In this document: in pieces, positions 4,500-14,547 of the stretch
How positions within the stretch are numbered: the stretch's first letter is position 1
Layout of the letters: each line of letters begins with the position of its first letter
Assembly: GCA_046497275.1 (NCBI GenBank)
Contig: JAWOFX010000036.1
Coordinates: 1-14,756 of the forward strand
Source of the DNA: Promethearchaeia archaeon
GTDB lineage: Archaea > Asgardarchaeota > Lokiarchaeia > Sigyniarchaeales > SOKP01
Direction: 5' to 3'
Length of the DNA: 14,756 nt
Notes under the pieces: model-generated
Told to the model about the DNA's origin: nothing
Databases searched by the model: none
What the model saw: only the letters and a program-made list of their open reading frames with translations
Translations under genes and position numbers: made by a program

Positions 4500-5774
4500 C
4501 TATCCCCATTTTTCAAGGGCTTTTTTTAATTCTATATGAGATTTTGAATATTCTTCCAAACTTATCTCATCTAAGGTGGCATTAAGTGCTTGAGTGATTG
4601 CTCTTGCGCCATTTTCTGTGCCATTTGGATGTCCGTGACATCCTCCTCCGAATTGAAAGACCATATCTCTTCCCAGTATTCGAATCAATTCAGGTATATC
4701 CAATGGACTCAATCCTCCAGAGGCCACAGGAAGGACGGGTTTTATATGATACCAATTCTGATCTAATAAAGTTGAATTATTTCCTTTAATATTTTTTTCT
4801 GTGATAACTTTATTAATATCTAACACTTCTTGCTTTTCTCCTTCCATTTTTCCAATCACTGTTCCTGTATGTAATTGGTCCATGCCTATCAATCGTGATA
4901 ATTTGGCTAATGCAAGCATTGTTAATCCATGTTTTTTAACACGAGTGAAAGCTGCGTGCATAGCTCTATGTGCATGAATTGCGACATTTTTGGATTCTAA
5001 ATAGTCACGCATCTCCATTAGAGCAGAAAATCCAACGGTTACTATATCAATCATTACATATTCTCCCCCTTGGTCGATTACTTGATCTGCTCTTTGTTTC
5101 ATTATACTTACTTTTGACGTTATATTGGGCATGTATATTTTTTTATCTCCTGTTTCCTCCTCTATTTGATCTCGTCTCTCAAGGGTTTTTTCAACTCTCT
5201 TTTCGAATTTATTAAATTTCATACTGGTTAAATTTTCATCATCTTTAACTATGTCGAGACCACCACGCCATGCTTGAGCGCATATTTCTGCATGTTCTTT
5301 TTCATTTAGTCCAACTTTTGGTTTTACAATAGTTCCCAAAAGAGGTCGGTTTTTAATAGCTGTCAATTCTCTTATTCCATTAATCCCAAATTTTGGACCT
5401 CTATATGAATCAATGATACTCTTAGGAAATGAAATATCTAACAATCGTAAATACTTCAATTTTTTCATTCCATATATATTCCCGGCAATAGCGCTTAATA
5501 TCTGAGAGATGTTATCAGCTTCAAATAAATCCTCTGTGTATGCTATTTTTATGATATTTTTTGAATCATCAATATAAAAAGCAGAAGGTTTAAGATTTTT
5601 AGCAATATCTTCTGACATAGTTAGAATTTTTGTCCAAGTTCCAATCGAGCTTTCTTTAGCTATTTCCATACAAGCTTGTTGTAGATCCTCGCACTCTGGT
5701 GCTTTTTCCACATAATACATCGCAATTAAATCCTTCTGATTTGGTTCATAATCTAAATTTACATAATCAACCAT
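4500..5774 (-). CDS. rbcL: Ribulose-1,5-bisphosphate carboxylase, form III (archaeal type)
   Basis: ESSIGTW, GTIVKPKVGL, catalytic GLDIVKDDE, HAHRAMH, HTGTVIGKMEG (loop 6 Lys), PVASGG and QFGGGCHGHP. 424 aa with no small-subunit gene nearby. Confidence 0.96.
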   Translation of the reverse strand: MVDYVNLDYEPNQKDLIAMYYVEKAPECEDLQQACMEIAKESSIGTWTKILTMSEDIAKNLKPSAFYIDDSKNIIKIAYTEDLFEADNISQILSAIAGNIYGMKKLKYLRLLDISFPKSIIDSYRGPKFGINGIRELTAIKNRPLLGTIVKPKVGLNEKEHAEICAQAWRGGLDIVKDDENLTSMKFNKFEKRVEKTLERRDQIEEETGDKKIYMPNITSKVSIMKQRADQVIDQGGEYVMIDIVTVGFSALMEMRDYLESKNVAIHAHRAMHAAFTRVKKHGLTMLALAKLSRLIGMDQLHTGTVIGKMEGEKQEVLDINKVITEKNIKGNNSTLLDQNWYHIKPVLPVASGGLSPLDIPELIRILGRDMVFQFGGGCHGHPNGTENGARAITQALNATLDEISLEEYSKSHIELKKALEKWG

Positions 5775-7260: not shown

Positions 7261-8262
7261 TTAAAAATCAGGCCCAATTTGTGTGTAGATCGTTCCAAAA
7301 TTCATTTTTCGAACAGGGGATTTTTTCATTTCAGTCCAAATCTTTCCATCCCATTTAAATATTTTATTTGAGTGGGGATTCCGCTTCCTAATATCAATAT
7401 CCTCATCTATTGTACCTAAAAAACGCCATAAAAAGTTTTTACTCCCTCGTGTTCCTCCATGGTGCCAACTTCCCGGCAATTCAGATTCAAAGCGCCATTC
7501 ATTTGAATCATAATTATACACTAGATGTTGTCTTTTAACTGGACCTTTGAAATTCTCTCTCTTTGAATTATAAAATGCCGCATTAATATTCCAACCACCT
7601 ATGATATGGAGTTCATTTTGCCATTTATCTCCTGAACCATCAGTTGTTGGAATTGGACATGGTTTCATCACCTCCCAAATGTCGTCTATTGGATTATAAC
7701 GCTGATTTAGTGCCCCTTCATAAGTGTTTTGCTCAGGTTTATTTCCCGTATTTCCAGTTGAATAATAAAGCCATCCATTATGATAGGAAGGGAGTGGAAA
7801 TGATTGAGTATAGGGCGCATCTGCCATTTTTATATTCCATCTATCATTTAACAAGTCATATTGCCAATTCCAATTAACACGGCTAAATGGTCCTTGGATG
7901 TCATCTCCTCCAAAAAGATATAAATACTTATTATCGACGACTGGATAAAATTTGCCTAATTTACTACGTGCTTTTGGCATTTCATTATAAAGATCCCATT
8001 TATCTTCTCTAATATCATATACTTGGACGTAAGCAGAGCATCCAGAATGAGGTTTAGTTTTTCCTCCGAAGCAATAGATTTTATTATTAAAAAATGTCCA
8101 TCCTGCTCCTTGTACGGGATAAGGCATCGATTCCAATTGATCATTTTCGCTACTATACCATTTATTTGCACCGATATCATAAACAGTTGTATCTGCAACC
8201 GTATATTTATTTTCGATTTTACCGCCAATTGCCCAAATAAATTCGCCTTTTTTTGTTTTCAT
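7261..8262 (-). CDS. Stand-alone Kelch-repeat beta-propeller protein
   Basis: About six repeats with the hydrophobic-GG...YD/YN...W pattern (AIGG, CFGG, LFGG, YSTG, IIGG, FLG). No obvious signal peptide. Confidence 0.88.
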   Translation of the reverse strand: MKTKKGEFIWAIGGKIENKYTVADTTVYDIGANKWYSSENDQLESMPYPVQGAGWTFFNNKIYCFGGKTKPHSGCSAYVQVYDIREDKWDLYNEMPKARSKLGKFYPVVDNKYLYLFGGDDIQGPFSRVNWNWQYDLLNDRWNIKMADAPYTQSFPLPSYHNGWLYYSTGNTGNKPEQNTYEGALNQRYNPIDDIWEVMKPCPIPTTDGSGDKWQNELHIIGGWNINAAFYNSKRENFKGPVKRQHLVYNYDSNEWRFESELPGSWHHGGTRGSKNFLWRFLGTIDEDIDIRKRNPHSNKIFKWDGKIWTEMKKSPVRKMNFGTIYTQIGPDF

Positions 8263-8442: not shown

Positions 8443-8826
8443 ATGAAGTTTTGTAAAGAATGCGGTGCGCTGATGTTGCCTGGTAAAGATAAAAATGGGA
8501 ATAAAGTATTTAAATGTAAATGCGGAGTTATTGAGAAATTTTCTGAAGATGAATCGGAAAATTATAAGATCTCAACTGAAATAAAGCGAGATTTAAAATT
8601 TGAAGTCGTAAATGCTAAGGACATCATCGATTGGAAGGAAAAAAATCTAAAGAGCACGATTAAAAATTTTAAATGCCCAAAATGTGGTTATAACAAGGCA
8701 TCATTAGAGACTAGGCAAACTAGAAGTGCAGATGAAGGAATGACAGTTTAAAATATTACATTTTAAATCATTAAACATTTTATTGTCTGCCTTCGATGTG
8801 GTAGAATGATTAAAATCGGCAGTTAA
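8443..8826 (+). CDS. tfs: Transcription factor S (TFS/RpoM, TFIIS-like), intron-containing: join(8443..8744,8775..8826), 117 aa
   Basis: N-terminal Zn ribbon CKEC...CKCG and C-terminal CPKCG...QTRSADE. The unspliced ORF stops at 8751 lacking the last CxxC. The missing part (HFIVCLRCGRMIKIGS*) lies in the same frame from 8776 to 8826. Removing 30 nt gives ADEGMTHFIVCLRCG, matching the family spacing ADEPxTxFYxCxxCG. Confidence 0.9.
8745..8774 (+). other. Bulge-helix-bulge (tRNA-type) intron in tfs mRNA
   Basis: Sequence AGUUUAAAAUAUUACAUUUUAAAUCAUUAA. Central 4-bp helix AAUG(8739-42)/CAUU(8769-72), 3-nt bulges ACA(8743-45) and AAA(8773-75), inner stem G8746-U8768 plus UUUAAAAU(8747-54)/AUUUUAAA(8760-67), outer pair G8738-C8776. 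Cutting after the second nucleotide of each bulge excises exactly 30 nt and restores the frame. Confidence 0.85.
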
Positions 8827-10965: not shown

Positions 10966-12651
10966 ATGAAAAAGCATCATATTAGTAAAAAGATACAGAT
11001 TATTATTATTATTAATCTTATCATTTTATCATCATTTGCATTTATTTTTCTGTTAAATAATAATAAGGATTCGCAAACTAATTCTGATGTAGAACAACAT
11101 TCATTACTAAAAATAAATGCTTTTTCAAAAGATGAGTATTCATCAATATTACAAGAAGAGAAGAGTGGATTAGGAGAGATTTCTGTATTAAACATCTCTT
11201 TTCATGAAAGAGGATTCGATAATTCCTCTCAGTTTAATGAGTTAGATAAAGATATCGGAAAGGATTTAAATATTACATATGATGGAACTTCATTTGTAGA
11301 AACTATGGTGAATGCTTCAAGAAATTATCTAAAGGAAGGATATATTAACAATAACGTTGTAAGAATAAATTTAAACGAAACTCTTCTAGTTAATTTTGAT
11401 AATACAACTTCTGAAGGAGGGCTTGCTGGTTTTTTAGTTTATCTCCCCCGTTTAACTTCTATAGAAATTTTGGAGATTTATGTGGGAGGGTCAATTTTAA
11501 CAGAAGATGAATACTCTATTGTTAATGATGGTTTTTTAAAATTTGATTATTTTGATTATTTTGATTCACCAGAGGATGGGCAATTTTCTATGAATATAAT
11601 TTATTCTTATGAACTCAGTTTGATAAATTGGAAGATTGACCAACTTAACATTGATGATTTAGTTGCTAATCAATCAATGCAAAATTTTACAGCTAAGTAT
11701 GCATACACATTCTTACTTAAAGGAAATAAATTTTCAGGGAATCTACCCACAAGTGAAATAGAGGCAGATAATTTAAATGTTAATTTATTAGTCTCTCTTT
11801 TTGATCATCAACTCTTAAATAATTTCAGTCTTGCTTTAAATTCTGAACAAATAGATAATATTGAGAATTATCAAGTTTCATATGGTAAGTTTAATATTTC
11901 TCTGAAAGATTCATTTTCTGCTAATTCAAGCATCTTCCATTTGAACTTTACTTCCAATTTTTTAATAGCATTTCAAGATCCTGTGAGATATTCATGGGCT
12001 ATCGATAGATTGGTTAGTGGAAACAATATACGAGAAAGAATATATTTTCCTCAAATCCTTGAGGGACCAGAACATCTCTTATTGAAATTCACCTTTTATC
12101 AAGAAACAATTGAAGATGAACAAATTGATGACATCTCTTCGCAATTTAATAGAATAGTAAATCATTTACCTATATCTGAAATTGAAGAACCATACATTAA
12201 TCAGGGTATTTTGGTTTATACACCTTCTTTAATCTTTGGAGAGTATGGCTGCCCCTTCACTATAAGATATGAAGCAACGAATGATCTTAGAATAATTATA
12301 ACCGATAATATAAACATGCCCTTATGGAATTTAGATGTACAGATTTTTTATTATAATACGGTATATGGAACTTATATTTCGAATAACTTCACCCAACCCA
12401 TAGCACCTTTAGTAGCAAATGAAAATGGAGAGATTATATTAAGATATTTACCAAATGGGGAATATAAAATTGATATTTTTCGAAGGGGAATTAAAATCAA
12501 ATCAGTGAATATCAGCACAGAACAAGAGACTCATTATATTTCAACTAATGTTATCCATTTTCCAAGCGTCATTCTTTCTTTTGGATTAATTAGTATCGTA
12601 ATTTTGCTCATTGGATTTTTTATTTATCTACGAAATAAAAAAGTGGCATAA
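10966..12651 (+). CDS. Membrane-anchored extracellular/surface protein of unknown function
   Basis: Basic N-terminus plus hydrophobic segment (IIIIINLIILSSFAFIFLL), C-terminal TM helix followed by RNKKVA, at least 14 N-x-S/T sequons, and a beta-sandwich-like C-terminal segment (TDNINMPL...NENGEIILRYLPNGEYKIDI). Confidence 0.8.
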   Translation: MKKHHISKKIQIIIIINLIILSSFAFIFLLNNNKDSQTNSDVEQHSLLKINAFSKDEYSSILQEEKSGLGEISVLNISFHERGFDNSSQFNELDKDIGKDLNITYDGTSFVETMVNASRNYLKEGYINNNVVRINLNETLLVNFDNTTSEGGLAGFLVYLPRLTSIEILEIYVGGSILTEDEYSIVNDGFLKFDYFDYFDSPEDGQFSMNIIYSYELSLINWKIDQLNIDDLVANQSMQNFTAKYAYTFLLKGNKFSGNLPTSEIEADNLNVNLLVSLFDHQLLNNFSLALNSEQIDNIENYQVSYGKFNISLKDSFSANSSIFHLNFTSNFLIAFQDPVRYSWAIDRLVSGNNIRERIYFPQILEGPEHLLLKFTFYQETIEDEQIDDISSQFNRIVNHLPISEIEEPYINQGILVYTPSLIFGEYGCPFTIRYEATNDLRIIITDNINMPLWNLDVQIFYYNTVYGTYISNNFTQPIAPLVANENGEIILRYLPNGEYKIDIFRRGIKIKSVNISTEQETHYISTNVIHFPSVILSFGLISIVILLIGFFIYLRNKKVA

Positions 12652-12654
12652 GAA

Positions 12655-12981
12655 TTGATTGTTATTTTTGTTGATAATATTGAGAAATTTATAGATTTTT
12701 TAGATAGAAGAGTGATGGATGAGATTTTCTATGAATTTAAAAAGATAGGAAAAGGAGCTGATCTCTCCAGTAATGTCGAAATAGAAATAATTATCCATTT
12801 CCTTTCAAAGCTTGAAGGATTTTTGATTTTATATGAAACAGATTTAAACTTATTAAAACCAAGTAATTCTAATATTGATGAAGAGGTTGTCAAGGATCTG
12901 AAGCGTATTTTTGCAAAAATTGATGATTCTATTAAATTAACGAAGGGCAAAATAAGAGAAATCTTTCTCTCATATAGCTAG
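12655..12981 (+). CDS. Hypothetical protein (108 aa)
   Basis: Open frame with TTG start 3 nt after the upstream stop, ordinary globular composition, and it fills the gap up to the convergent aIF2-gamma. No family recognised. Confidence 0.65.
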   Translation: MIVIFVDNIEKFIDFLDRRVMDEIFYEFKKIGKGADLSSNVEIEIIIHFLSKLEGFLILYETDLNLLKPSNSNIDEEVVKDLKRIFAKIDDSIKLTKGKIREIFLSYS

Positions 12982-12984
12982 AAC

Positions 12985-14547
12985 CTAATCTTCTTTATCG
13001 ATTCTTAATCCGTAACCTATTAATCGATATCTTCTATTGATTATTCGAGAAATTGCGAAAATGAATTCTTTAGGTACACAAATTGGTGGATTTAATTCAA
13101 TTATATACGTATCTTTAAGTATTTTTTTTACTGTACCAGCACATCTTTCAGTTCCTACCACCATTAAGAGCCGCTCACCATGTTTTAATTCATGAACTTT
13201 AATCATCTCTTCGGTACCAATAACTCTATCGAGAAGATGAACCTCTAATTCAACTTGATTTAATACAGGTGGTAATGTCTCTAGTTTTCCTGCTAAATTT
13301 CCGATTAAAGCATCCCCTTTAGTTAAAGCAGGATCTAGTTTTGTTCCAAGACCGATTAATCCTCCGGGTTTAGCTTCTTCCAAGAAGTTGTTTCCTTGAC
13401 TGATACTAATGATTTGGGAATTTATAGGAGTATACCCATCTTTCCGTTTCAACCCGGGTTTAATTTCAATCATATCTCCCACATTTACCTTCCCTTTTAA
13501 TACAGAACCTCCGATTACTCCACCAATTAGATTATTAATTTCTGTCCCCGGTTTATTTACATCGAAAGATCGAGCAATCAAAAACTCGAAATCCTCAGAT
13601 TTATCTAATTTAGTAGTGGGAATAAATTCTTCAAATGCTCTAACGACTAATTCCAGATTAGCTCCAAAAATGGCTGATGTAGGTATAATAGGAGCACTTT
13701 CCGCGACAGTTCCTTTGACGAAATTCTTAATTTGGTTATAGTTATTCTCTGCCTCTTCTTTACTCACTGCATCAATTTTATTTTGGATGATAATAATATT
13801 CTCAATCCCTGCAATATCCAATGCTGCTAAATGTTCTCTAGTTTGAGGTTGTGGACACATTTCATCAGCAGCGATTAATAAACATGCTCCGTCCATAAGG
13901 GATGCACCACTTAACATGGTTGCCATCAATATTTCGTGACCTGGAGCGTCAACAAAAGAAATATTTCGCTTGAATTCGGCTTGTCCCTTGCATTCTGGAC
14001 AATGGAAGCGAGGTTCCCCTTTTTTCCTCTCAGTTTCTAACATATGTAATGTTAAATACATATCACAAGTAGGACAATATAAAATAGTAGCATTAGAATA
14101 ACCTAATTTTATGGATATGCCTCGTTCTTGTTCTTCTGAATGACGGTCTGTCCAATCCCCTGTAAGTGCTTCGACTAGGCTTGTTTTACCATGGTCTACG
14201 TGCCCTACAAGCCCTACGTTACATTCTGCTTGTTGTTTGATCAATTCTTTAAATTCTGCACTAGTTTTATCTTCTTTAGGTTTTTTTTCTTTTTTGATTT
14301 CCTTTTTTGGTTTTTCTTTTTCCTTTCTTTCTTCTGGAACTGCCTTCCCTTCCTTCTGAGGCTTTCCTAGTAGATTTCTCGCATCTTCAATATATTTAGA
14401 AGCTGTTGATTTTCCAATCCCTTTCACTTGTAATAAATCCTTAACTTTCAAACTTGCGAGTTTTTCAACACTATCTATACCAGCCTCTCGTAAGCTCTCT
14501 GCCGTTGCCTTCCCAATGCCAGTGATATCTTCTAATTGTAATGTCAT
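12985..14547 (-). CDS. eif2g: Translation initiation factor 2 gamma subunit (aIF2-gamma) with N-terminal HhH domain and K/E-rich linker
   Basis: GHVDHGKT, EEQERGISIKLGY, DAPGHE, QNKID, RSFDVNKPG and GGVIGGS, plus a Zn knuckle CPTC...CPEC. There are about 105 extra N-terminal residues. Confidence 0.96.
   Translation of the reverse strand: MTLQLEDITGIGKATAESLREAGIDSVEKLASLKVKDLLQVKGIGKSTASKYIEDARNLLGKPQKEGKAVPEERKEKEKPKKEIKKEKKPKEDKTSAEFKELIKQQAECNVGLVGHVDHGKTSLVEALTGDWTDRHSEEQERGISIKLGYSNATILYCPTCDMYLTLHMLETERKKGEPRFHCPECKGQAEFKRNISFVDAPGHEILMATMLSGASLMDGACLLIAADEMCPQPQTREHLAALDIAGIENIIIIQNKIDAVSKEEAENNYNQIKNFVKGTVAESAPIIPTSAIFGANLELVVRAFEEFIPTTKLDKSEDFEFLIARSFDVNKPGTEINNLIGGVIGGSVLKGKVNVGDMIEIKPGLKRKDGYTPINSQIISISQGNNFLEEAKPGGLIGLGTKLDPALTKGDALIGNLAGKLETLPPVLNQVELEVHLLDRVIGTEEMIKVHELKHGERLLMVVGTERCAGTVKKILKDTYIIELNPPICVPKEFIFAISRIINRRYRLIGYGLRIDKED

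What the first reader, a model, noticed from the sequence alone, without database searches (positions are those of the whole stretch)
8739..8776. Canonical BHB intron inside a protein-coding gene (TFS) in a probable Asgard archaeon
Seen in sequence: a 30-nt, roughly 90% AU insert with two in-frame TAA stops (8749-51, 8764-66) splits the C-terminal Zn ribbon of TFS. The RNA forms a textbook BHB: 4-bp helix AAUG/CAUU, opposite 3-nt bulges ACA and AAA, and a 9-bp intron stem with a 5-nt loop. The standard cuts (after C8744 and A8774) give ...AUG AC|A CAU UUU..., restoring MTHFIVCLRCG with family-correct spacing. Established: the archaeal splicing endonuclease EndA cuts BHB motifs after the second bulge nucleotide and RtcB ligates; the best-known mRNA case is crenarchaeal cbf5. 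Inference: this lineage splices mRNA of a core transcription factor with tRNA-splicing machinery. Automated annotation would call the gene truncated, so similar introns may be hidden genome-wide. This bears on intron evolution in the closest prokaryotic relatives of eukaryotes.
Basis: partly seen in the sequence, partly recalled or inferred. Interest (0 to 1): 0.95.

Follow-up and report, generated by a model that had tools for sequence, protein, structure and literature searches.

The report
tRNA-type intron in TFS-like gene
A 30-base intron of the kind normally cut out of tRNAs interrupts a transcription-factor gene of a Loki-type Asgard archaeon; comparison with relatives indicates that it is spliced from the messenger RNA, and the sole EF-1alpha gene and the RNA polymerase A' gene of the same genome carry similar inserts.

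Summary
Window 8745-8774 is a 30-nt, 90% A+T insert with two in-frame TAA stops. It splits the C-terminal zinc ribbon of a TFS-family gene. It folds as a 4-bp central helix, two 3-nt bulges and a 9-bp inner stem.

The motif alone is at chance level in this 30% G+C genome. The evidence is comparative:
- 14 of 135 genomes of the family carry the insert at the same site.
- Close relatives are precisely intronless and show the predicted junction.
- The inner stem and one central-helix pair covary.
- One relative has a 31-nt, frame-shifting version.
- Exon 2 has dN/dS of about 0.07 in intron carriers.

The sole EF-1alpha gene and the RpoA', lsrF, DGGGP-synthase-like and E2-like genes carry similar 30-32-nt inserts. 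This is best read as an EndA/RtcB-spliced mRNA intron (confidence 0.88).

Caveats:
- No RNA data could be consulted.
- The outer helix is imperfect.
- The gene is a divergent TFS paralogue, and a canonical TFS lies elsewhere.

The scan has noted this kind of intron before, in this genome and in another Loki-type genome. I found no paper on Asgard mRNA BHB introns in the library searched.

The parts
8443..8744 (+). Exon 1 of the TFS-family paralogue. It holds the N-terminal RPB9-type zinc ribbon, the linker, the first CxxC of the C-terminal ribbon and the acidic SADEG loop. It ends after the second base of the Thr codon (phase 2).
   Evidence: Translation; Pfam PF02150 and PF01096 positions 1-27 of 39; orthologues in 24 of 24 sampled family genomes.
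8745..8774 (+). 30-nt BHB intron, 90% A+T, with in-frame TAA stops at 8749-8751 and 8764-8766.
   Evidence: It is precisely absent from the orthologues of G002 and of Logan SRR25621645. It is present at the same site in 14 of 135 family genomes. Boundaries were confirmed by script.
8775..8826 (+). Exon 2: the third base of the Thr codon, then HFIVCLRCGRMIKIGS and the stop. It supplies the second CxxC of the TFIIS-type ribbon.
   Evidence: The protein is identical to the C-terminus of the intronless G002 orthologue. dN/dS is 0.07 among intron carriers.
8739..8742 (+). 5' strand of the central 4-bp helix (AAUG, exon). It pairs with 8769-8772.
   Evidence: The first pair is A-U in 4 carriers, U-A in 4, U-G in 1 and mismatched in 5.
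8743..8745 (+). 5' bulge ACA. The predicted EndA cut lies between C8744 and A8745.
   Evidence: Geometry. The cut-after-second-bulge-base rule is calibrated within this genome by the EF-1alpha insert, where only that cut restores the P-loop GKST.
8746..8768 (+). Intron hairpin: 9-bp stem (8746-8754 with 8760-8768) and 5-nt loop AUUAC (8755-8759).
   Evidence: The stem is 99% paired across 14 carriers, with three compensatory pairs. The loop varies between carriers and differs by one base in a near-identical strain.
8769..8772 (+). 3' strand of the central helix (CAUU, intron).
8773..8775 (+). 3' bulge AAA. The predicted cut lies between A8774 and A8775.
   Evidence: The same ...AA|A 3' end is seen in the EF-1alpha, RpoA', lsrF and E2-like inserts of this genome.
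8734..8738 (+). 5' strand of the imperfect outer helix. It pairs with 8776-8780 as G-C, a G.A mismatch, A-U, A-U and G-U.
   Evidence: the pair 9-52 covaries, but 4 of 14 carriers are mismatched there; energy.
8728..8735 (+). 5' strand of a distal exon-exon helix (GCAGAUGA, pairing with 8783-8790). It may clamp the two exons together.
   Evidence: Present in both the MFE fold and the BHB-constrained fold. Complementarity averages 7.35 of 8 in carriers and 6.41 of 8 in intronless orthologues (not corrected for relatedness).

Best explanation
The gene at 8443-8826 encodes a divergent paralogue of transcription factor S. Its coding sequence is interrupted after the second base of a Thr codon by a 30-nt bulge-helix-bulge intron (8745-8774).

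Proposed mechanism. In the pre-mRNA, exon bases AAUG pair with intron bases CAUU to form the 4-bp central helix. This helix is flanked by two 3-nt bulges, a 9-bp intron hairpin, a weak outer helix and a distal exon-exon helix. The (alpha-beta)2 splicing endonuclease EndA cuts after the second base of each bulge (after C8744 and after A8774). RtcB then joins the exons and probably circularises the intron. The product reads ...SADEGM-T-HFIVCLRCGRMIKIGS, a 117-residue protein with a complete second zinc ribbon. Unspliced RNA would give a 102-residue protein lacking half of that ribbon.

What is shown:
- the sequence and its geometry;
- homologous inserts and precise absences in relatives;
- covariation;
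- selection on exon 2;
- presence of the enzymes.

What is inferred: the cleavage, the ligation, the exact cut sites and any regulatory use.

The intron is old within the family and has changed state repeatedly. Repeated precise loss is the most likely reading. It is one of several 30-32-nt introns of the same build in protein-coding genes of this genome.
For: 1. Intronless orthologues. The orthologue in the same genus (G002, 82% identical protein) reads exactly the predicted junction. A second intronless lineage at 87% identity lacks exactly the same 30 nt.

2. Distribution. A covariance model finds the insert at the same site in 14 of 135 genomes of the family, in six genera. It was found in none of 24 genomes of six other families of the class.

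3. Independent assemblies carry it: a JGI metagenome contig, Logan SRR7048228, Loki's Castle SRR1555744 and two further records. An assembly artefact is therefore excluded.

4. Structure. The BHB is 95.8% paired over 14 carriers. No shuffle in 500 reached the observed covariation score, and slid controls pair at 29-51%. There are three compensatory pairs in the inner stem, and the central-helix pair changes A-U to U-A. The rival exon-exon pairing shows no compensatory change and is broken in 5-8 of the 14 carriers.

5. Frame. G020 carries a 31-nt version, so only exact removal restores the frame.

6. Selection. Exon 2 has dN 0.087 and dS 1.19 (ratio 0.07) among carriers, the same as in intronless genes. 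Spliced lengths are 116-117 residues, as in intronless orthologues.

7. Machinery. Two EndA paralogues are present. One is nearest to PDB chain 3p1z_B; the other lacks the His of the catalytic motif. There are also two RtcB genes. Asgard EndA is described as (alpha-beta)2 with the loop that gives broad specificity (PMC5829648).

8. Other genes in the same genome. The only EF-1alpha gene above the NCBIfam cut-off is split inside GHIDHG|KST by a 32-nt frame-shifting insert of the same build. RpoA' is split inside GHFGH|IELARP by 30 nt, and G002 is intronless there.
Against: No RNA evidence exists. The one metagenome scan for the junction found only the unspliced DNA form.

The outer helix has a G.A mismatch. 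The unconstrained fold prefers exon AAUG paired with exon CAUU by 4.4 kcal/mol.

In five carriers (genera g11 and g5) the first central-helix pair is an A.G or A.A mismatch.

Motifs of this quality occur at chance frequency in this A+T-rich genome.

An intact canonical TFS exists elsewhere (G000:C83), so the cell does not strictly need this gene.
Confidence: 0.88

Rival explanations
1. The interrupted gene is a decaying paralogue. A small A+T-rich hairpin was inserted, the gene is dead or works as a 102-residue stump, and the canonical TFS on contig C83 does the job.
For: An intact canonical TFS that passes the NCBIfam TFS_arch cut-off is present. The interrupted paralogue type scores below that cut-off. 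Annotation pipelines already treat such genes as 100-103-residue proteins.
Against: Exon 2 is not decayed: dN/dS is 0.07 among carriers and the second CxxC is intact in all of them. The insert is not strain-specific, being shared by six genera with conserved structure. The single EF-1alpha gene carries the same kind of insert, and that gene cannot be dispensable.
Confidence: 0.04
2. The insert is skipped during translation (ribosome hopping over a hairpin with a stop codon, as in phage T4 gene 60) rather than removed from the RNA.
For: A stop codon follows within two codons of the 5' boundary and lies inside a stable hairpin. Hopping would also explain why exon 2 is conserved.
Against: The only downstream ACA that matches the take-off Thr codon (8775-8777) would resume in the wrong frame (read). 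The exon base that covaries with the intron's 3' end (AAUG/CAUU to UAUG/CAUA) has no role in hopping but is exactly what a BHB needs. The EF-1alpha, RpoA', lsrF and E2-like inserts share BHB geometry and the AA|A 3' end rather than matched take-off and landing codons.
Confidence: 0.03
3. The RNA is cut at the BHB but splicing is deliberately inefficient or conditional. The competing exon-exon helix and the BHB fold act as a switch that sets how much full-length paralogue is made.
For: Two mutually exclusive folds lie within 4.4 kcal/mol, and the non-BHB fold is the more stable. A negative regulatory role was proposed for the cbf5 intron (PMC2738675).
Against: The exon-exon AAUG/CAUU pairing is not maintained in 5-8 of 14 carriers and shows no compensatory change. 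Frequent precise loss without visible consequence argues against an essential regulatory role.
Confidence: 0.05

Closest known systems
cbf5 pre-mRNA intron of Crenarchaeota (Desulfurococcales and Sulfolobales; Watanabe et al. 2002; Yokobori et al. 2009, PMC2738675)
   Same: It is a BHB intron inside the coding sequence of an archaeal protein gene. It must be removed to give the functional protein. It is patchily distributed among relatives, with inferred secondary losses. The host has an (alpha-beta)2 EndA with broad specificity.
   Different: The gene differs (a TFS-family paralogue, not the pseudouridine synthase) and so does the phylum (Asgard, not Crenarchaeota). Splicing here is not shown experimentally. 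This intron is one of several in the same genome, whereas a 2020 paper still called cbf5 the only coding-region case (PMC7714728).
BHB intron in the 5' UTR of HVO_1309 mRNA of Haloferax volcanii (PMC7714728)
   Same: It is an mRNA substrate of the archaeal splicing endonuclease outside tRNA and rRNA.
   Different: That intron lies in an untranslated leader and was confirmed in vivo and in vitro. This one interrupts a codon inside a zinc ribbon and is supported only by comparative evidence.
Non-canonical tRNA introns of Asgard archaea (PMC11291895; bioRxiv 10.64898/2026.10.13.758758)
   Same: The motif, the presumed enzymes and the pattern of repeated gain or loss at sites able to form a BHB are the same. 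In this genome ARAGORN finds only 26 tRNA genes, 14 of them with introns, as expected for a lineage with heavily interrupted tRNA genes.
   Different: The host RNA is a messenger, so removal must be exact to the base to keep the reading frame. Those papers do not treat protein-coding genes.
Canonical archaeal transcription factor S (NCBIfam TIGR01384), and the inhibitory paralogue TFS4 of Sulfolobus (NF047723)
   Same: It has two zinc ribbons and the acidic DE tip (RSADEG) that canonical TFS inserts into the RNA polymerase active site.
   Different: It is only 30% identical to the genome's canonical TFS. The intronless orthologue scores 55.3 bits against a cut-off of 64.75. The C-terminal tail is ...CG.M.KIGS instead of ...W.E. 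Unlike TFS4 as I recall it, the acidic residues are kept.

Membership tests
Archaeal BHB intron (EndA/RtcB substrate) | [quoted passage not shown] | tested here: met
   AAUG 8739-8742 pairs with CAUU 8769-8772, with bulges ACA and AAA. The helix is kept in 14 carriers, but its first pair is mismatched in 5 of them.
Archaeal BHB intron (EndA/RtcB substrate) | Flanking helices h (exon side) and h' (intron side) | tested here: inconclusive
   h' is a 9-bp stem, 99% paired with compensatory changes. h is G-C, G.A, A-U, A-U, G-U and contributes almost no stability. A distal 8-bp exon-exon helix may substitute for it. The motif is best described as a relaxed hBHBh'.
Archaeal BHB intron (EndA/RtcB substrate) | Removal at the canonical cut sites restores a functional product | tested here: met
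   The predicted junction is identical to the intronless G002 gene. The full PF01096 ribbon is seen in that orthologue. The 31-nt variant in G020 also restores the frame.
Archaeal BHB intron (EndA/RtcB substrate) | The host encodes a splicing endonuclease and an RtcB ligase | tested here: met
   Two PF01974 genes (one catalytic-like, one lacking the His) and two PF01139 genes are present.
Archaeal BHB intron (EndA/RtcB substrate) | Cleavage by EndA and ligation demonstrated on RNA | not testable with these tools
No spliced-form contig or protein was found.
Transcription factor S (TIGR01384 equivalog) | N-terminal RPB9-type ribbon, C-terminal TFIIS-type ribbon with four Cys, and an acidic DE loop | tested here: met
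   PF02150 and PF01096 match. The SADEG loop is present. The fourth Cys pair is supplied only by exon 2.
Transcription factor S (TIGR01384 equivalog) | Score above the curated equivalog cut-off | tested here: not met
   The intronless orthologue scores 55.3 bits against a cut-off of 64.75. The genome's other TFS scores 79.3. The gene is therefore filed as a TFS-family paralogue, not as TFS proper.
cbf5-type pre-mRNA intron | Located in the cbf5 gene of Desulfurococcales or Sulfolobales | tested here: not met
   The gene and the phylum both differ. It works like the cbf5 intron but is not a member of that set.

The most novel reading that the evidence does not exclude
Loki-type Asgard archaea carry a genome-wide population of 30-32-nt BHB mini-introns in protein-coding genes. 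The genes affected include essential ones: the only EF-1alpha gene, RNA polymerase A', a lipid-synthesis prenyltransferase and a ubiquitin-conjugating E2-like protein. The tRNA-splicing enzymes would then act as a routine mRNA-splicing system in the closest prokaryotic relatives of eukaryotes. The introns are gained at sites whose exons can already supply half of the motif and are lost precisely, giving presence/absence polymorphism between congeners much like eukaryotic introns. The tfs-paralogue intron is one well-documented member.
Probability: 0.7. Interest if true: 0.9.

Novelty: new member of a known kind. Interest (0 to 1): 0.8.

Why it matters
Coding-region BHB introns in archaea were documented for one gene, cbf5, in one phylum. 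A 2020 paper still describes it as the only such case (PMC7714728). Here the same mechanism is inferred for a transcription-factor paralogue in Asgard archaea. Its distribution has been visible since the 2015 Loki's Castle data but is annotated as truncated 'hypothetical' or 'RPA12/RPB9/RPC11 family' proteins of 100-103 residues.

Two consequences follow.

Practical: gene callers truncate or split core genes in these genomes, including EF-1alpha and RpoA', which are standard phylogenetic markers. This can affect completeness estimates, marker extraction and Asgard-eukaryote phylogenies.

Conceptual: a lineage close to the eukaryotic stem would be using protein-only tRNA-splicing enzymes on messengers, with intron gain and precise loss over short evolutionary distances. 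That makes questions about early intron dynamics, and about RtcB-type mRNA ligation (compare HAC1/XBP1 splicing in eukaryotes, from my own knowledge), testable in cultured or enriched Asgard archaea.

Tried and rejected

2. Junction scan. One metagenome scan used a pattern that accepts both the spliced and the unspliced form. It found one contig, which was unspliced DNA of a near-identical strain.

3. Spliced-form proteins. No full-length protein in the homologue list is identical to the spliced product of any carrier lineage. The full-length hits belong to intronless lineages on ordinary DNA contigs.

4. Motif-only genome scans do not discriminate. Loose BHB criteria gave 59,049 hits against 58,322 in reversed sequence. 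Strict criteria gave 92 against 91. Adding an ORF-repair filter left thousands of candidates. Restricting to hairpin-type introns gave only a small excess at 30 nt (11 against about 5 per length). That set includes the tfs and DGGGP-synthase-like sites but misses EF-1alpha, RpoA', lsrF and E2-like because their motifs are relaxed. I therefore give no total count.

5. The first, pure-Python scan timed out.

6. Copies of the intron elsewhere in the genome. nhmmer found only the tfs site, so the intron is not a repeated mobile element in G000.

7. Rfam and ARAGORN gave nothing on the G057 locus, and ARAGORN found no tRNA in the window.

8. In-frame read-through or stop-codon recoding was rejected because of the 31-nt (G020) and 32-nt (EF-1alpha, E2-like) inserts.

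9. Ribosome hopping was rejected on frame and on covariation (see the rival explanations).

10. A second same-frame ORF pair in the window (10966-12651 and 12655-12981) was checked as a possible further intron. It looks like a normal gene end followed by a separate small gene.

11. My automatic search found only a 28-nt, frame-breaking BHB register there. Its motif is relaxed, and I did not resolve it.

Full report
WHAT IS IN THE SEQUENCE

The window is contig C130 of a 3.85-Mb assembly with 188 contigs, 98.9% completeness and 30% G+C. An ORF starts at 8443 and stops at TAA 8749-8751. A second in-frame TAA lies at 8764-8766. The same frame then reads HFIVCLRCGRMIKIGS up to the stop at 8824-8826.

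Pfam finds an RPB9-type N-terminal zinc ribbon and a TFIIS-type ribbon that ends at profile position 27 of 39.

- AAUG 8739-8742 pairs with CAUU 8769-8772.
- The bulges are ACA and AAA.
- The stem has 9 bp and the loop is AUUAC.

The outer helix is poor: G-C, G.A, A-U, A-U, G-U. RNAfold prefers another fold, in which exon AAUG pairs with exon CAUU 8776-8779 and a long exon-exon helix forms (-14.9 kcal/mol, z = -2.6). The best fold constrained to the BHB core reaches -10.5 kcal/mol and keeps the distal exon-exon helix 8728-8735 with 8783-8790.

IS IT MORE THAN CHANCE?

Not by structure alone. With loose BHB criteria the genome gives 59,049 hits and its reversed sequence gives 58,322. With criteria as strict as this motif the counts are 92 and 91. 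The case rests on comparison with relatives.

COMPARATIVE EVIDENCE

Distribution. All 24 sampled genomes of the same family hold an orthologue of this gene. Reading those loci showed two classes. Most run straight through...GGNATGACNCAYTTY... Six have about 30 extra bases at exactly this point. A further intronless lineage at 87% identity (Logan SRR25621645) lacks exactly the same 30 nt.

A covariance model built from the six carriers was run over 135 genomes of the family. It found 14 full-length matches in six genera (g1 2, g3 4, g7 1, g12 1, g11 5, g5 1) and 40 matches of 43 nt, which is the intronless form. It found no carrier among 24 genomes of six other families of the class.

The insert is also present in independent assemblies:
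- a JGI metagenome contig with one substitution, located in the loop;
- Logan SRR7048228;
- the Loki's Castle metagenome SRR1555744, with two further records.

There the gene is annotated as a 102-103-residue hypothetical protein. An assembly artefact is excluded.

Structure. Over the 14 carriers the BHB is 95.8% paired. No shuffle in 500 reached the observed covariation score, and slid controls pair at 29-51%. The inner stem is 99% paired, with three pairs changed on both sides.

The first pair of the central helix is A-U in four carriers and U-A in four. In those four, the exon Gly codon is GGU instead of GGA and the intron ends CAUA instead of CAUU. It is U-G in one carrier and mismatched in five.

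The competing exon-exon pairing of AAUG shows no compensatory change and is broken in 5-8 carriers.

The distal exon-exon helix is more complementary in carriers (7.35 of 8 pairs) than in intronless genes (6.41 of 8; Mann-Whitney p = 0.0007, not corrected for relatedness). Even the intronless value is high, so the coding sequence seems to have offered a ready site.

Reading frame and selection. G020 has a 31-nt insert with a six-base loop, so its exon 2 lies in another frame on the DNA. Only exact removal gives the conserved C-terminus.

Among carriers, exon 2 has dN 0.087 and dS 1.19 (ratio 0.07). This is indistinguishable from intronless genes and from the end of exon 1. The spliced products are 116-117 residues long, like the intronless proteins, and all keep the second CxxC.

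On a gene tree the intron state changes nine times, and at least five changes are forced by well-supported branches. Intron sequences cluster by genus. An old intron with repeated precise loss is therefore the simplest history, although transfer between lineages is not excluded.

MACHINERY

The genome has two EndA-family genes of about 200 residues. One is closest to PDB chains 3p1z_B and 3ajv_B, which I recall as the Aeropyrum pernix catalytic subunit. It keeps the Tyr/His/Lys context. The other is 28% identical to the first and lacks the His. This is the (alpha-beta)2 layout reported for Asgard and TACK archaea, which confers tolerance of relaxed BHB motifs (PMC5829648). Two RtcB genes are present.

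ARAGORN finds only 26 tRNA genes, 14 of them with introns. That fits a lineage with heavily interrupted tRNA genes (PMC11291895; bioRxiv 10.64898/2026.10.13.758758).

THE SAME KIND OF INSERT IN OTHER GENES OF THIS GENOME

Earlier first-stage notes of this scan pointed to further candidates. I tested several.

- EF-1alpha. The only match above the NCBIfam cut-off starts at profile position 20. The first 19 positions lie upstream in another frame, separated by 32 nt (G000:C83:19114-19145) placed inside the P-loop GHIDHG|KST. The motif is AUGG/CCAU with bulges UAU and AAA. Only a cut after the second bulge base restores the invariant Lys. This calibrates the cut rule within this organism.
- RpoA' is split inside GHFGH|IELARP by 30 nt (C83:1644-1673). 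G002 is intronless there.
- lsrF carries 30 nt (C98:30530-30559), absent in G002.
- A UbiA-type prenyltransferase is split inside its NDxxDxxxD motif (C111:36426-36455).
- A ubiquitin-conjugating E2-like gene carries 32 nt (C79:2991-3022). It is intronless in G002 and eight other genomes. The same insert position occurs in G012 and G017. G057 has a 30-nt insert 11 nt upstream.

All of these inserts end in ...AA|A.

A motif-free comparison of 386 kb of G002 with G000 gave four clean 30-nt stop-containing extra segments in G000. An essential single-copy gene with a frame-shifting insert means that this organism must remove such inserts from its mRNA. This is the strongest indirect support for splicing of the tfs-paralogue insert.

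WHAT THE GENE IS

The genome has a second, intact TFS on contig C83. It passes the NCBIfam TFS_arch cut-off with 79.3 bits against 64.75.

The interrupted gene type scores 55.3 bits and is 30% identical to that TFS. It keeps both ribbons and the acidic SADEG loop. It is therefore a TFS-family paralogue that is probably still able to reach the polymerase active site; that part is inference. Public records label it variously as transcription factor S, RNA polymerase subunit M, or RPA12/RPB9/RPC11 family.

The nearest public records are labelled Lokiarchaeota, Hermodarchaeota, Hodarchaeota or Promethearchaeota. The Asgard assignment therefore holds.

RIVALS

- Pseudogene. The other half fails: exon 2 is not decayed and the insert is not strain-specific.
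- Ribosome hopping. This fails on frame and does not explain the exon-intron covariation.
- Read-through. This is excluded by the 31-nt and 32-nt inserts.
- Conditional splicing through the competing fold. This is possible but unsupported.

KNOWN RELATIVES AND NOVELTY

The mechanism is that of the crenarchaeal cbf5 intron (PMC2738675). A 2020 paper still called cbf5 the only BHB intron in an archaeal mRNA apart from a newly found 5'-UTR case in Haloferax (PMC7714728).

Seven searches of the held library found nothing on BHB introns in Asgard protein-coding genes. The Asgard intron papers found deal with tRNA genes.

I therefore rate this as a new member of a known kind, and part of what looks like a much larger, unreported set. 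This scan has noted the same kind of intron before, both in this genome and in another Loki-type genome, where a follow-up reached a similar verdict.

LIMITS

Splicing is inferred, not observed. The one metagenome scan and the protein search found only unspliced or intronless DNA forms. Statistics across relatives are not corrected for shared ancestry. I give no genome-wide count because my motif scans do not separate signal from background.

Noticed in passing
G000:C83:19114-19145 (+), outside the window: The only EF-1alpha gene above the NCBIfam cut-off is split inside its P-loop (GHIDHG|KSTMMG) by a 32-nt frame-shifting insert with BHB geometry (AUGG/CCAU, bulges UAU and AAA). Only a cut after the second bulge base restores the invariant Lys.
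   Followed up: yes
G000:C83:1644-1673 (+), outside the window: The RNA polymerase A' gene is split inside CMGHFGH|IELARP by a 30-nt insert (GGGC/GCCC, 9-bp stem). The G002 orthologue is intronless.
   Followed up: yes
G000:C79:2991-3022 (-); L058:586-630 (G057); L105 (G012); L112 (G017): A highly conserved ubiquitin-conjugating E2-like gene has two different intron positions 11 nt apart within the family. G000, G012 and G017 have a 32-nt insert after ...MMHVE. G057 has a 30-nt insert after ...ALKGM. Nine other genomes, G002 among them, are intronless.
   Followed up: partly
G000:C98:30530-30559 (+); G000:C111:36426-36455 (-); G000:C17:13150-13179 (+); G000:C156 near 83531 (-): Further 30-nt stop-containing inserts. 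One is in lsrF. One is in a UbiA-type prenyltransferase, inside its NDxxDxxxD motif. One is in a small zinc-ribbon gene. One is in an unnamed gene. The lsrF, C17 and C156 inserts are absent from the G002 orthologue. The C17 motif is relaxed, and my automatic search found only a frame-breaking register.
   Followed up: partly
whole genome G000: ARAGORN finds only 26 tRNA genes in a 98.9%-complete genome, 14 of them with introns. Many tRNA genes are probably hidden by multiple or non-canonical introns.
   Followed up: no
window 12985-14547 (-): The aIF2-gamma gene (GTP_EFTU and eIF2_C domains) is 520 residues long and carries an N-terminal helix-hairpin-helix domain (HHH_5, residues 4-57). I do not recall this domain in archaeal aIF2-gamma.
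   Followed up: no
window 8728-8735 with 8783-8790: There is an 8-bp exon-exon complementarity around the intron site. It is more complete in intron carriers (mean 7.35 of 8) than in intronless orthologues (6.41 of 8). It may act as a clamp for splicing, and since it is partly present without the intron it may have pre-adapted the site.
   Followed up: partly
window 7261-8262 (-) and 4500-5774 (-): A Kelch-repeat beta-propeller protein lies directly upstream of the tfs paralogue. The same arrangement occurs in the two near relatives from Logan runs SRR25621645 and SRR7048228, whereas in the more distant Loki's Castle-type loci CitG directly precedes the tfs gene. A form III-like RuBisCO large subunit lies next to a nucleoside hydrolase and an IF-2B-family (ribose-1,5-bisphosphate isomerase-like) gene.
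   Followed up: no
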